Source of the DNA: Perna viridis
Taxonomy: Eukaryota
Direction: 5' to 3'
Length of the DNA stretch: 64,000 bases
Assembly (NCBI GenBank): GCA_037379345.1
Contig: CM074517.1
Coordinates: 9,982,001-10,046,000 of the forward strand
Shown here: in pieces, positions 9,001-18,000 of the stretch
Numbering within the stretch: the first letter of the stretch is position 1
Layout: each line of letters starts with the position of its first letter
Program-made: the position numbers

Positions 9001-12000
9001 ACAATGCATAGTTAAAATCCAACACCACCCAAAGAGAGATAACTCCAATTAAATTGTATTGGCTTTTAACTATCTTCTTTGAAATTACTACACTTAAAAA
9101 AAAAATAGTTTGGCGTCTCGATTACCAGTTCAACAATATTTAGTTGAAAATTAACTTAAAATGTTTGAAATATTATTAACTGGGATATCAGTGAAATATT
9201 TAAAGTTTAAAAGAGAATTGCGCATCAATTTGAAGAAAGCATTTCTGTCCGCGAAGTTATCTGCTGGAAGCCCTTTTGTCATTCTTATACTTACAATACT
9301 TGAAGCCACTAACAAGACTTCAGAGTAAAAAATTGCAATAAAGTTTTTGTGGAAGGGGAACTTTGACTATCGGTCATTTGGGATTGGGGAAACAAACAAA
9401 ATTTTATTTTTGGCCTTGTGCAATTGAAAACAAAACAAACATGAATACAGAGCATGCCATAATAAAAACAAACACATGCAGTGCTGAATTGAACACATAG
9501 ACAAATTTACAAAAAAGCATCTATTTAAATTATGGACAGAAGAAAATATGAAGTAACAATAAATCCAGTACATTTGTACTATACTGGTTTATAGAATTAG
9601 ATTTCCAAACTTATATAGATCATAATATTTTTGAAATGGAATTAGGAATTGGTCGCAAAAACATTTTTAAAATTACCAGAAAACCTTTAAAACAAGCATT
9701 ATCATATGGTTTCATAATCTTAGAGATTCTATTAACTATCTTGAAATTTACCAGAAAACATTTTTTACTCCAAAATTTATCTTTACCTATCCTTAAGACT
9801 GATATAAAAAACTGAACTATTCTGTAATTCTAAGGCCTCAAGTGAAACAAAACAAAAAACATGTAAACCAAAACAGAAAAACACACAACAACCATACCTG
9901 ACGAGGAATAGATAAGGTAAAAGTCACTGTTAATTAAACTGAAAGGAAAAGAAACTTTGTAACAGACTGCACCATCAGAAACAAACTTTGTAACAGGCTG
10001 CACCATCAGAAACAAACATTGTAACAGACTGCACCATCTATGTTCAGCTTCACAAACCTAGATCAGATCTAATTGGTTCTTATTCTTATGGCAACACATC
10101 TTTACAATATTACTAGCTTTCTTATTGTCAGGCCATATAGAAAAAATAATGGTTGTAAACATCTTAATTTGCATGACAATTCAGAGAGAGATATTTTGGA
10201 GGTACTTAATTGTGGAAACTCTTATGTCAATTTCTTTTAAAATCATGTAGAACTGTTTTCTTGTAGGCTACATTGTGACCATCTAAAATGATTGATGAGT
10301 AATACATTATAGAATGCAGATAGACATTTGAAAAATAGAAGTTGGGTTGATATTAAAATGCTTAAAGTCTTTTTTTTTAAATCACACTCAATATTTCCAA
10401 AAAAAAAACCTTGAGATTTGACAGGTTTTATTGTCAACCAATGTTTAAGTGTGGCCAGAAATTACAATATAAAGATATCTATCTGCTCCTTCAAGTTTCC
10501 TGCTTTGCTGTACTATAAATGTGTTGTAAACTGATGACAGAAAATCTAAGAACTACTCTATATTTTATTCCCATCACACATTAACTAGAATTAATTACAT
10601 GTAATTAGAGAAACCAAGTGAGGCACAAATCTATTTCAATTTCCTGAATTTTTTTATATCGTACAAAAAACAATGACATTCTTTCAAAGGACTTATTTAA
10701 CATTTTAATTAAGTTTTCAATATGAAATGTAATATCAGTTAATATAGAAATTAAAGAACAGAAGAAGAGACTTCCAGAAGACATTACTTATCTACACTAC
10801 AACTTTGATGAATATTGCCATTTTCGCGAGTCCACAGTGTACAGTTTACATGATACATAGCTATGATAATGCACATCATTTACCTATCCCCTGTTCAGTT
10901 GTTAGAAATTTTAAAATAACCCTGAAACTATATATAGGGTTTACATTGAAAATTGATTAAAGGTGCGATTCAAACTGTTCTAACAAAAAAATGTATATCA
11001 GATCTTGAGTTTTTGAGGCAAGTGAAAGGGAAGTGATATACCTTTAACTTAATATATTTGTACATGTGTAAAAGCAAAAATAAATAAGCTTATTTTCCTT
11101 GTCATAGAATACATTTTTTACCAAAAGGAGATTAAAATTGAAAATACATATATCAATTAAGAAGTTAAAAGTACCTTAAATTCCTAGTCAAATTATAATT
11201 TGTGATGCTTTCATACTCATCTAGACAATTTCCACTAAGGGAAAGGGAAAAGGGCAAATTCATTGAGCTGTAGTGCAAAATTGGTTTTGACCTCCATTTT
11301 AGGGGTTTAGAGGAAGAGATCACTTGAAAATAAATTGAACATATCCATGCATCATGCTTCATTCCAAAGATGAAAATAAAAACTAAAACATGCAACATTT
11401 ATTACAAATAAAAGAAAACAGAAATAATAAAACATACAACAATCAATGCAAGAAACTTCTACATAAAACAAATAAAAATACACCAAAACTCAAAATTTTT
11501 CAGTAGAGGGGATATTTTGTGATAAAAATAATCCTTTAAAAAAACAAAAAGTTTAAATACTGACCATTACCTGATTTATACAGGTACAATCTGAGTTTTG
11601 ATTTTAATACTAAGCAAAACAAAATTCATAAATGCAAATCCATGAAGAAAACCATTGCCCTACAATATAGCAAAGCTACGAACCATGTTTGCGAAGCAGG
11701 GGGTGTTAGTAAACAAAAACAATGCTTGCTATATACTGAGAATGCAAGCTAAACATAGTGCCAGTTAACCTTTTTTTGACTTGGTTATTCTGTATCTAGA
11801 TGGCCCTGTTTTAGGAATGTTTCTCATTGGTTTGGTTGGACTTGGAGTCCTCTCAACTGATGTTCTGTCCCTTGCCTTGTTCAGACTGCTCATTGTAGGT
11901 CTTGTCAATGAACTGGTTCTTGATATGTCAATAGATTTCGGCCGAGACTTTGTTGGAGCTGGTTTTGTATCAGTTGTTGTTTCTGGTTTTGATTTTCGAG

Positions 12001-15000: not shown

Positions 15001-18000
15001 GTATGTCTAACTCATTTGACTGTGGCATAACATCTACAACTTCATCCTCTGGTTTTAAAACATGACATTCAGTGTTTGCATCCAATAAGTCTAAATTATT
15101 TGAATGTTGATCATTATCTGTAATATGATTTTGAACTTCAGGTTCATCGAAATTTGAATCCATTAAAGCATTGGAATTTTGTTCACCTTCATCCATTTCG
15201 TCTTCACTTTGTTCTGGATTAACATTGTGAAAACTATGATCCTGAACAATATTGTTAGTATCCTTGTCATCAACAGCATATGTTTCTATTGTATCATTCT
15301 GTAGTTCTTGTTTCTTTGATTCTGTGGCTTCCAAAGCAGCTTGCTGAAAACCCATGACGAGGCTCTCTCGACCTGGATAATCATCTATTTCTGTTCCCAT
15401 AGAAACTGCTGTTTGTTTCTGTGTCACAGGCAAAGTGTCCTCCATTTCTTCTTCCTCATATTTCTCCTGTATTGTCTGACCTGTTACTATTGGAACATCT
15501 GTTTGGTCCACTGCAGAGGGTTCAGTCTGAGATATAGAATCTCCTTGCTGATCATCAGTAAGAAGATTCAGGTCTGTTATGTTTTTTTCTTCTGGAACTG
15601 GCTGACTATCAAATTCTTCATCATCAGAGTTTTCAGATTCTTCCATTAATGTTCCCTCCACTAAACCACTTATCTGAACCTGATCAGCCTTCTGATCTCC
15701 ACCGAAAGTTTGAAATTGAGATCCTCCATTCATTTTAGCAAGCTGATTTGGGTCAGGGGTCAGTGACCTTTCTTCAAGATCAGAGTCATCACTTTCTATT
15801 GTAAAAGTGCTACTTTTGGGAACACCTTGTGCTATTTCTGAAGATTGTAGATCTTCTGAATTATCTGTTACTTTTGCAGAAGCAATTTCTAATTGATTTT
15901 GTGAAGGAACTTTTTCAATTGCATCCTCCTTTTCATTTTTAACTACTGTCATTGGATTTGAATTGTTCAAATTGGAAGCCATAACTTCAGATATGACAGC
16001 TTCAGTTACATTCTGTCTCAAAGGATCAAAATCAGAAGTACTAGGGTCAAATGCCTGACATTTATCCTGGCTGATTTCCTCATTTTCCTCGTCAGATAAT
16101 TCCTCTTGTTCCTCTGTTTCATCATACTGAACATTCTTTGTGAATGCTTCCTCGATTTGAGAAAATCCAGATGCACCAATATTTGGATCCACATTATCTA
16201 AAACATTCTCAGTATCAGACCTCTCCTGACCAGGAGGTTTCTCTACTTCATTTTTTATTTCAGGAACAATATGTTCAAGTCCATTCTCACCCTTGTCTCC
16301 TCCATCAGATTCATCACTGTACTCACTTTCCTCTGAATCAACATATTCATCATCATAATTTTCATCACCTTCATTGTAAAAGTCATTTTCTATAGCTTCT
16401 TCTGATTCTTGTAACTTATTTTGACTTTGAAAGTCTGAATCATCATAACTTTTTAATTCAGTTTCATTTGGATGTTTGATTTGATCATGATCCATGAACT
16501 CAGGTCGGGAAGCAGACACATCTGTCATCAAGAGATCAGGTGGTTGTGAAGGTTGTAAACACTCTTCATGATCAGATTGAGCAGATGGTTTTTCTGAAAG
16601 GTCGTTGGGATCAAGAAGGTCATCACTGTGGGTTTTGTTTGATTCTTTTGAAAATTCATTCACTTTAAGTAGATCGGGTTGAAATGGATTTCCAGAGCCT
16701 TCCAAAGAAGACTCATCTTCATAACTTTCATCTACTAGCATATTATCCTCATCATCATATCCTCGATTTGTATCTGAAAGACTTGAATCTAAAATTTCCT
16801 TTCCAACAAAGGAAGGACTGAAAGAACTCTGGTTTTGTGTATACATATGGCCATCATCTATCTGGTCTCCATGGTAATCATCATGGTAACCAGGCACTTG
16901 CTGATTTGCCATCTGATTGTTTAAAAGGTCACTTTGATTCATATCACAAGTAGTCATTTGACCTCCTAATACTGAAGGGTCACTTGAATCAAGTTCAAGG
17001 TTATCATCCATTGCTAAATACTGTCTTATTGTTGTCTGTAGATCAAATTACTGGTATCCTGAAATGAAAGTAAAGCAAGTATTATGAAATGTTCACAGCT
17101 AGTTATTTATTGAAAGGTCACAATGATGACCAAATACTGTATAGATGCTTATTTTCACAGTGTGCTTATTTTGGCTTATTTTAGCTTTTTGCCTAAAAAT
17201 ACCAAAATAAATTCCTTATAATACTAAATGCACCCACCACAATAAAATATGGCGATATTTTTCGTATACATTTTTGGCCTGAAAATCACAAATTTAACAC
17301 CCACCAATAAAACCCACTGTACAGCATATTAATTCTGAGTAAGTCAAACCAGAGGAAATTCATATAATGTACTATACTGGGGTATATTTTACAACAGTGA
17401 TATATTTGTTTATTTAAGCACTTACACAAAAAAACAAAAAATAAAAAAACCTGATGATGTTTGTTTCTAAAGTTAGGAATTTATGCAATAATGATTACAT
17501 ATGCCAAAATAGAAACCTCTTAAATTCACCATGCTTCTTCCCATTAAAACTTCGAAATTTTACATGTACTAATTTATGTAGAATACTTGTTCCATGATAT
17601 TTCCAACTAATTTTAAAACATACAAATAGACACAGTACATTTATTAACAAATGAGTAATTCAATACACCATTAAAGCAGGGTCATCGTGTTAAGAAATAA
17701 TCATAGCTTGCACATCATTTCAAGTTAGGGAAATAATTTTTAATAATATAATGTTTGTGGTAAATATTGAAAATAATAGACAATTTCCAACTCATCATGT
17801 CAAAAGTACATATGGATGATAAAAAAATGGTAGAACTTCTCTTTAAAGTGATAAATGCAGCGCTATAAGAATTTCCTTGGGAGTATAACACTCTACATCA
17901 AAAGCAGGTATTAAACTTTTGAAGTCTACTGGACATATGTACAAATTCAATCATTTCCTGAACTACAGAGATACCTTTCTAAACCAAAACCCTGTATAAC

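What the first reader, a model, noticed from the sequence alone, without database searches (positions are those of the whole stretch)
11770..17058. Invertebrate 'giant tau': a single 5.3-kb exon supplies a ~1750-aa N-terminal domain
Seen: four phase-compatible exons give at least 1835 aa before the second microtubule repeat, with about 95% from one exon. Established: ordinary tau and ptl-1 proteins are a few hundred residues; vertebrate big tau (exon 4a) and high-MW MAP2 gain long projection arms from large internal exons, and arm length sets microtubule spacing. Inference: this is a MAP2-sized, possibly independently evolved giant isoform. Unusually, the giant exon carries its own ATG behind an in-frame stop, so short isoforms would need a different start exon ending in phase 1. 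Automated annotation may split it off as an anonymous acidic protein.
Basis: partly seen in the sequence, partly recalled or inferred. Interest (0 to 1): 0.72.

Follow-up and report, generated by a model that had tools for sequence, protein, structure and literature searches.

The report
Giant acidic exon upstream of tau-like repeat
A real 5.3-kb protein-coding exon for a very long, acidic, floppy protein arm sits just upstream of exons of a tau-like microtubule-binding gene and probably forms its long version, but the sequence alone cannot show that the two are spliced together.

Summary
On the minus strand a 1760-codon open frame (17047..11765) has a strong acceptor at 17059/17058, an in-frame TAA, and an ATG at 17011. 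Downstream lie three small exons whose phases fit. The last one (1277..1192) is a Pfam tubulin-binding repeat (E 1.6e-8). The count from the ATG is 5505 nt, or 1835 codons, with 95.2% from the giant exon.

The frame is translated. Copies of an internal 47-aa repeat differ mostly at third codon positions (41/31/122). The product is about 1560 acidic, disordered residues followed by 187 basic S/T/K/P-rich residues, which is the charge layout of tau/MAP2/MAP4 proteins.

The splice to the tau exons is unproven. The proposed donor AAG|GTTAAC is weak (rank 38 of 217 GTs), and a TAA follows one codon later. I also found a candidate alternative start exon (ATG 7824, GTGAGT donor, 84-nt intron into exon B).

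My estimate is about 0.6 for one gene with a long isoform and about 0.3 for two genes. Six literature searches found no description of such an invertebrate exon. Verdict: a new member of a known kind, of moderate interest.

The parts
11770..17058 (-). Giant exon, 5289 nt (3 x 1763). It consists of 47 nt of 5' UTR followed by 5242 coding nt.
   Evidence: Codon-position bias is G1 39%, A2 46%, GC3 24%.
17059..17080 (-). Pyrimidine-rich tract and AG acceptor in front of the giant exon.
   Evidence: tactttcatttcag|GATACC.
17048..17050 (-). In-frame TAA upstream of the start codon.
17009..17011 (-). Start codon, with a purine at -3 and G at +4.
12332..17011 (-). Acidic, disordered arm of about 1560 aa. 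D+E make up 25% of the 1747-aa product (pI 4.05), and net charge is negative in every 100-aa block up to aa 1600.
   Evidence: AlphaFold2 gave mean pLDDT 44.8 (aa 1-420) and 37.3 (aa 980-1370), with no residue at or above 70.
12929..14044 (-). Seven copies of a unit of about 47 aa (141 nt), starting at aa 990, 1081, 1130, 1174, 1221, 1268 and 1315.
   Evidence: Among the four regular copies, differences by codon position are 41/31/122.
14499..15403 (-). Zone of degenerate repeats of 87 and 189 nt, with five copies of a short Asn-x-x-Asp-Leu/Ile-Leu/Met motif.
11771..12331 (-). Basic tail rich in Ser, Thr, Lys and Pro (187 aa, pI 10.5).
11765..11769 (-). Proposed donor GT (11769-11768), overlapping the TAA (11767-11765) that ends the frame if the exon is not spliced.
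16321..16326 (-). The only GT[AG]AGT hexamer inside the giant frame. It is in phase 1 at codon 228 and could be an alternative donor or a chance match.
7725..7824 (-). Candidate alternative first coding exon: ATG in an acaaaaATGg context, 33 codons plus 1 nt, basic (pI 10.0).
   Evidence: No Pfam or PDB match.
7641..7724 (-). 84-nt T-rich intron, from gtgagt to ctgtttttag.
7546..7640 (-). Exon B, 95 nt, phase 1 to 0, rich in Ser, Lys and Asp.
   Evidence: No Pfam match.
1679..1760 (-). Exon C, 82 nt, phase 0 to 1, basic (pI 11.2).
1192..1277 (-). Exon D, 86 nt, phase 1 to 0. It holds the first tubulin-binding repeat (core 1251..1192) and ends directly after PGGGQ.

Best explanation
The 5.3-kb exon is the first coding exon of the long isoform of a tau/MAP2/MAP4-family microtubule-associated protein. 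The transcript starts at a non-coding exon further upstream, which I did not locate. Translation begins at 17011. The giant exon is spliced from its 3' end to exon B (7640), then C and D, and on to further repeats beyond the window edge.

Inferred mechanism: the repeats bind the microtubule lattice. The basic region of about 250 aa (the exon's last 187 aa plus exons B and C), rich in Ser, Thr, Lys and Pro, adds affinity and carries proline-directed phosphorylation sites. The arm of about 1560 aa, strongly acidic and disordered, projects from the microtubule as a charged spacer. Its seven conserved 47-aa modules would serve as repeated docking sites for an unknown partner.

A short isoform probably starts at an internal promoter near 7.9 kb, using the candidate exon 7824..7725 spliced into the same exon B.

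Shown here: the exon is coding, the product's composition and disorder, the tau repeat, and the site geometry. Inferred: the splice junction, both promoters and every functional statement.
For: (1) The frame is translated. 1760 open codons have a probability of about 1e-61, and codon-position bias is strong. Repeat copies differ 41/31/122 at codon positions 1/2/3 (6 non-independent pairs among 4 copies).
(2) The charge layout matches the family. Net charge is -9 to -29 per 100 aa up to aa 1600, then +18 and +11. The tail has pI 10.5, and the composition continues into exons C and D (pI 11.2 and 11.0).
(3) All 12 blocks of 150 aa fall on the disordered side of the charge-hydropathy line. AlphaFold2 gave mean pLDDT 37.3 and 44.8 with 0 residues at or above 70.
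(4) Exon D is a PF00418 repeat above the gathering score. It ends right after PGGGQ at a GT.
(5) The exons share a strand, lie 4129 nt apart and have fitting phases.
(6) No other coding-looking frame or Pfam domain lies in the 47 kb upstream. Minus-strand T>A skew holds in 10 of 11 non-repeat segments and G>C in 11 of 11, including the interval between the giant exon and exon B. This is weak evidence and needs a recalled rule about transcribed strands.
(7) Precedent: vertebrate MAP4 places different projection domains, including one with a different start (oMAP4), on the same repeat domain (PMC4423121, passages). A crayfish 270K heat-stable MAP cross-reacts with anti-MAP2 (PMC2113782, abstract).
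Against: The donor AAG|GTTAAC scores 5.5 of 10.5 on a crude consensus count. That ranks it 38th of 217 GTs in the frame and 31st of 81 phase-1 GTs, below the donors of B, C, D and the candidate start exon, which score 7 to 9. A TAA follows one codon later, so the frame also reads as a complete single-exon coding sequence. Phase 1 is shared by 37% of the GTs in the frame, so the phase match is weak evidence. The candidate start exon at 7824 would let the tau-like gene stand alone. AATAAA/ATTAAA hexamers lie 157 and 362 nt after the TAA, though they are common in DNA this AT-rich. There was no sequence match of the giant exon or its tail to any Pfam family, PDB chain or Atlas cluster. Only one tau repeat lies in the window. 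No transcript or cross-species evidence could be obtained.
Confidence: 0.6

Rival explanations
1. Two tandem genes. The giant frame is the single coding exon of a separate, lineage-restricted acidic disordered protein that ends ...KKG-TAA at 11765 and is polyadenylated soon after. The tau-like gene starts on its own at the ATG at 7824.
For: The TAA comes one codon after the weak donor. Poly(A) hexamers lie 157 and 362 nt downstream. The candidate start exon has a good ATG context, a GTGAGT donor in the right phase and a canonical 84-nt intron. Only 4 (donor, phase) combinations among the 31 GT[AG]AGT sites on this strand have 30 or more open codons back to an ATG, and this is one of them. The giant exon matches no tau-family model.
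Against: The last 187 aa switch to the basic Ser/Thr/Lys/Pro-rich composition that in this family flanks the repeats, and this happens exactly at the end facing the tau exons. The two would share a strand and lie under 4 kb apart in an otherwise gene-poor 64 kb. The start exon is only 33 codons with no family match and could be chance. Its most upstream in-frame ATG is at 7905 in a poor context.
Confidence: 0.28
2. One gene, but the giant exon is joined to exon B from a donor inside the frame rather than from 11770. That would drop part of the arm or tail and might give several isoforms.
For: Several phase-1 GTs score higher than the terminal one, for example at 16326 (the only GT[AG]AGT in the frame), 16290, 13635 and 12156.
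Against: Such sites are expected by chance where AGT and GGT codons precede G-rich first positions. The frame stays open, with coding bias and repeats under selection, right up to 11770, which argues that the whole length is translated in at least one isoform.
Confidence: 0.08
3. The frame is not a functional gene: a chance open frame, a decayed repeat or a pseudogene.
For: There is no homologue or family match. Long antisense frames also occur within it.
Against: Probability of about 1e-61 for the open frame, a third-position excess among repeat copies, good acceptor and ATG contexts, and no stop in 1760 codons in DNA of 31% GC.
Confidence: 0.02

Closest known systems
High-molecular-weight MAP2 (MAP2a/b)
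   Same: Both have a projection arm of roughly 1500 or more residues, largely from one very large exon, followed by a basic flank and tau-type repeats. The size is similar: 1835 codons here before the second repeat. MAP2's own size is recalled, not checked.
   Different: No match to any Pfam family, including the MAP2 projection-domain model. Here the giant exon holds the start codon behind an in-frame stop, rather than being an internal cassette between coding exons.
Big tau (MAPT exon 4a)
   Same: An acidic, disordered insert from one large exon, poorly conserved in sequence and thought to act through its length (PMC12896622 highlights in listing and passages; PMC9755724 passages).
   Different: Exon 4a is about 250 aa and is an alternatively spliced internal exon. 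This exon is about seven times longer, is the first coding exon, and is built partly from tandem 47-aa units.
MAP4 isoforms (uMAP4, mMAP4, oMAP4)
   Same: One repeat domain carries alternative projection domains, including a muscle-specific insertion and an isoform with a unique N-terminal domain and its own start (PMC4423121 passages). Non-vertebrate family members are placed nearest MAP4 (PMC4815063 passages).
   Different: The two-start arrangement here is only a candidate read from sequence, and there is no sequence similarity.
Crayfish 270K MAP (Hirokawa 1986)
   Same: An invertebrate, heat-stable, long, thin, high-molecular-weight MAP that cross-reacts with anti-MAP2 and cross-bridges microtubules (PMC2113782 abstract). 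The long isoform predicted here exceeds 194 kDa from the giant exon alone.
   Different: It is known only biochemically, with no sequence in the abstract, it comes from an arthropod, and no link to this locus can be drawn.
Short invertebrate tau-like proteins (Drosophila tau 361 aa, C. elegans PTL-1)
   Same: They share the tau-type repeats with a basic flank. The candidate short isoform here would resemble them, with 121 codons up to the end of the first repeat.
   Different: The papers I read treat invertebrate members as short. [quoted passage not shown]

Membership tests
tau/MAP2/MAP4 family | Tubulin-binding repeat that matches Pfam PF00418 above the gathering score | tested here: met
   Exon D scores E 1.6e-8 and 34.8 bits against a cutoff of 27. 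54 distinct PDB tau/MAP sequences (51 named tau) match at E<=1, the best at 2.6e-18.
tau/MAP2/MAP4 family | Three or more tandem repeats near the C-terminus | tested here: inconclusive
   Only one PGGG-type repeat occurs in all six frames of the window. The gene runs off the window at coordinate 1.
tau/MAP2/MAP4 family | Exon boundary directly after the PGGG+1 residue of a repeat | tested here: met
   Exon D ends ...PGGGQ|gtgtgt in phase 0. The vertebrate pattern it is compared with is recalled. PMC4815063 speaks only of 'congruity of the C-terminal 5 exons'.
tau/MAP2/MAP4 family | Basic Ser/Thr/Pro-rich region directly N-terminal to the repeats | tested here: met
   Exon C has pI 11.2, and the part of exon D before the repeat is basic. 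The tail of the giant exon has pI 10.5 and 50 S/T/P in aa 1601-1700.
tau/MAP2/MAP4 family | Acidic, disordered N-terminal projection domain on the same polypeptide as the repeats | not testable with these tools
   Composition and disorder fit. Continuity of the mRNA between 11770 and 7640 needs transcript data.
High-molecular-weight MAP2 | Sequence match to the MAP2 projection domain or N-terminal region | tested here: not met
   0 Pfam families at E<=10 for the 1747-aa product. That Pfam holds a MAP2 projection-domain model is recalled.
High-molecular-weight MAP2 / Big tau | The giant exon is an internal cassette between coding exons | tested here: not met
   An in-frame TAA lies 8 nt into the exon, and the exon has its own ATG at 17011. 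The exon length is divisible by 3, but reading through from upstream is blocked.
MAP4-style alternative projection domains | A second start exon that joins the same downstream exons | tested here: inconclusive
   The candidate at 7824..7725 has the right phase, a GTGAGT donor and an 84-nt intron. There is no family match and no transcript evidence.

The most novel reading that the evidence does not exclude
A non-vertebrate tau/MAP2/MAP4-family gene makes both a MAP2-sized isoform and a short isoform. It does so not by skipping a cassette exon but by choosing between a far-upstream promoter feeding an ATG-bearing giant exon and an internal promoter feeding a 33-codon start exon. The giant arm would have grown by tandem duplication of modules that are now under purifying selection. 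If so, the pairing of long-arm and short-arm isoforms is either older than the vertebrate gene duplications or arose again independently by a different gene-structure route.
Probability: 0.3. Interest if true: 0.62.

Novelty: new member of a known kind. Interest (0 to 1): 0.45.

Why it matters
The reviews and evolutionary papers I could read treat non-vertebrate tau-like proteins as short. They treat the long projection arms of MAP2, MAP4 and big tau as vertebrate additions (PMC4815063, PMC9755724, passages). A confirmed arm of about 1750 aa on a non-vertebrate family member would show that very long arms are not a vertebrate invention. It would also give a second, unrelated sequence for testing whether arm length and charge, rather than sequence, set microtubule spacing. 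The 47-aa modules under selection point to a specific binding partner. On the practical side, gene finders may split this locus into an anonymous acidic protein and a short tau-like protein, which would distort comparative counts of MAP sizes.

Tried and rejected
- Pfam on the giant-exon product and on exons B and C: 0 families at E<=10.
- ESM Atlas on the whole product and on aa 1500-1747: no usable hit.
- PDB sequence search with the last 210 aa and with the candidate start exon: 0 hits at E<=10. From memory, that exon resembles the conserved basic motif just before the first repeat of vertebrate tau and MAP2. No tool supports this, and I do not use it.
- AlphaFold2 on two stretches, single sequence only: low confidence throughout. 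I therefore ran no fold search.
- Poly(A) hexamers after the TAA: present, but uninformative in DNA of 30% GC.
- The candidate start exon read as an internal exon. An acceptor at 7926/7925 would fit phase 1 but adds about 33 residues (mostly hydrophobic) that do not look coding. The acceptors at 8021, 7892 and 7880 need phase 2. The one at 7845 has no pyrimidine tract. I worked this out from the sequence and set it aside as less likely.
- Nine upstream frames of 100-126 aa scanned with Pfam: nothing above cutoff.
- Rfam at gathering score and ARAGORN: 0 and 0.
- Strand-skew analysis: consistent with minus-strand transcription across the window, but it cannot separate one gene from two tandem genes.
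- Antisense frames of 237 and 198 aa inside the giant exon: a by-product of its purine-rich coding strand.
- Collections of bacteria, phages, plasmids and E. coli were not searched, because they cannot hold an animal gene's relatives.
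Full report
**What is there.** On the minus strand a single frame stays open from 17047 to 11765, a run of 1760 codons.
- It is preceded by a strong acceptor (tactttcatttcag|G, exon start 17058), an in-frame TAA at 17050-17048, and an ATG at 17011 with a purine at -3 and G at +4.
- The exon 17058..11770 is 5289 nt, which is 3 x 1763.
- It ends AAAAAG|gttaac, so one base is carried over. If no splice occurs, a TAA follows one codon later.
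- The window contains no N.

**It is coding.**
- Given the window's composition, 1760 open codons have a probability near 1e-61.
- The three codon positions differ sharply: G 39% at position 1, A 46% at position 2, and GC 24% at position 3.
- The exon contains seven copies of a unit of about 47 aa.
- Among the four regular copies, nucleotide differences fall 41/31/122 on codon positions 1/2/3, summed over 6 non-independent pairs. Synonymous codon changes are as common as non-synonymous ones, or more so, in most pairs. A fifth copy (aa 1130) has an indel, and its ungapped comparison was not used.
- This pattern means the frame has been under selection as protein since the copies arose.

**What the product looks like.**
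- From the ATG the exon encodes 1747 residues plus one base, giving 194 kDa and pI 4.05.
- D+E make up 25% of residues. Every 100-aa block up to aa 1600 has net negative charge (-9 to -29). The charge then flips to +18 and +11.
- The last 187 aa have pI 10.5 and are rich in Ser, Thr, Lys and Pro.
- All 12 blocks of 150 aa lie on the disordered side of the charge-hydropathy line.
- AlphaFold2, run on single sequences only, gave mean pLDDT 37.3 for the repeat array and 44.8 for the first 420 aa. No residue reached 70.
- Nine direct-repeat families show that much of the exon grew by internal duplication.
- No Pfam family matched at E<=10, no Atlas cluster, and no PDB chain for the tail.

**The tau-like exons.**

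| Exon | Coordinates | Phase in -> out | Boundaries |
|---|---|---|---|
| B | 7640..7546 | 1 -> 0 | AG acceptor, GT donor |
| C | 1760..1679 | 0 -> 1 | AG acceptor, GT donor |
| D | 1277..1192 | 1 -> 0 | AG acceptor, GT donor |

- Exon D matches the Pfam tubulin-binding repeat PF00418 at E 1.6e-8 and 34.8 bits, above the cutoff of 27.
- Exon D also matches 54 distinct PDB tau/MAP sequences, 51 of them named tau, at E<=1.
- Exon D ends directly after PGGGQ.
- It is the only such repeat in any frame of the window, so the rest of the gene lies beyond coordinate 1.
- Adding lengths only, from the ATG to the end of D is 5505 nt = 1835 codons, 95.2% of it from the giant exon.
- I did not build, search or fold the joined model.

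**Is the giant exon spliced to them?** This cannot be read from DNA alone, and the evidence points both ways.

In favour:
- The exons share a strand, lie 4129 nt apart and have fitting phases.
- The architecture carries the most weight: a long acidic arm turns into a basic Ser/Thr/Lys/Pro-rich flank exactly at the end that faces the repeat exons. The same composition continues in exons C and D. This is the layout of tau, MAP2 and MAP4.
- The 47 kb upstream hold minisatellites but no coding-looking frame or Pfam domain.
- Minus-strand T>A skew holds in 10 of 11 non-repeat segments and G>C in 11 of 11. This is consistent with one long minus-strand transcription unit, but it is weak evidence.

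Against:
- The donor AAG|GTTAAC scores 5.5 of 10.5 on a crude consensus count whose weights I recalled. It ranks 38th of 217 GTs in the frame.
- 81 of those 217 GTs are in phase 1, so the phase match is weak evidence.
- The frame also reads as a complete coding sequence, with poly(A) hexamers 157 and 362 nt downstream.

**A new element: a candidate short-isoform start exon.** Just upstream of exon B the same frame stays open.
- It contains an ATG at 7824 (acaaaaATGg) and 33 basic codons plus one base.
- A GTGAGT donor sits at 7724.
- A T-rich 84-nt intron runs into the acceptor of exon B.
- Among the 31 GT[AG]AGT sites on this strand, only 4 (donor, phase) combinations have 30 or more open codons back to an ATG. 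This is one of them. The others are exon B's own donor, a site inside the giant frame (16326, phase 1) and one at 7218.
It would give 121 codons up to the end of the first repeat.
- It also removes the argument that the tau-like exons need the giant exon for a start codon.
- It has no Pfam or PDB match and could be chance.

**Comparison with what is known.**
- Passages of PMC4815063 say that worm, mollusc, insect and urchin family members have shorter amino termini.
- PMC8985376 reports up to ten repeats in mollusc MAPs and an octopus gene split into three database fragments. It says nothing on length.
- PMC9755724 discusses only the 361-aa fly protein among invertebrates, and lists a 2777-aa lamprey entry.
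- Find-mode look-ups in two recent big-tau reviews showed no invertebrate giant exon.
- PMC4423121 shows that vertebrate MAP4 puts alternative projection domains, one with its own start, on the same repeat domain.
- The abstract of PMC2113782 describes a crayfish 270K heat-stable MAP that cross-reacts with anti-MAP2.
- Six full-text searches listed no paper describing an invertebrate giant tau/MAP2-type exon.
- Predicted protein sets of annotated genomes may already contain such models. I could not check this.

**Mechanism (inferred).** The repeats bind the microtubule lattice. The basic flank adds affinity and is probably regulated by phosphorylation: there are 27 SP/TP sites, including two in the last 26 residues. 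The acidic arm acts as a long charged spacer between microtubules or between microtubules and other structures. The 47-aa modules would serve as repeated docking sites for an unknown partner.

**Limits.**
The remaining collections hold only prokaryotes, phages and plasmids. Cross-species conservation, synteny and independent origin therefore stayed unchecked.
- Paper supplements were closed.
- I did not try to identify the source organism. I do not take the contig for human, because only the repeat itself resembles human tau.

**Verdict.** I put one gene with a giant first coding exon at about 0.6, two tandem genes at about 0.3, and the rest on other splice routes or non-function. It is a new member of a known kind (long-arm tau/MAP2/MAP4 proteins) with an unusual gene layout, and it is of moderate interest until transcript data exist.

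Noticed in passing
window 7725-7824 (minus), intron 7641-7724: Candidate 33-codon start exon with a good ATG context and a GTGAGT donor in phase 1, 84 nt upstream of exon B. The whole frame 8052..7537 is open for 171 codons.
   Followed up: partly
window 16321-16326 (minus): The only GT[AG]AGT hexamer inside the giant frame. It is in phase 1 at codon 228, so splicing from it to exon B would stay in frame. It could equally be a chance product of Ser-Glu codons.
   Followed up: partly
window 23970-26277, 26548-27148, 32147-33009, 17973-18472, 48198-48990, 51685-52591, 53715-54114, 55230-55514, 60327-60813: Many minisatellite arrays with units of 30-70 nt. The largest is a 36-nt unit repeated about 66 times. 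They fill much of the 47 kb upstream of the giant exon and create spurious open frames.
   Followed up: no
window 11769-12482 and 12903-13499 (plus): Antisense open frames of 237 and 198 aa inside the giant exon. They most likely reflect its purine-rich coding strand rather than genes.
   Followed up: no
window 14499-15403 (minus): Five spaced copies of a short Asn-x-x-Asp-Leu/Ile-Leu/Met motif within degenerate repeats of 87 and 189 nt. They could be short linear binding motifs.
   Followed up: no
whole window: On the minus strand T exceeds A in 10 of 11 non-repeat segments and G exceeds C in 11 of 11. This is as expected if the whole 64 kb is transcribed from that strand.
   Followed up: partly
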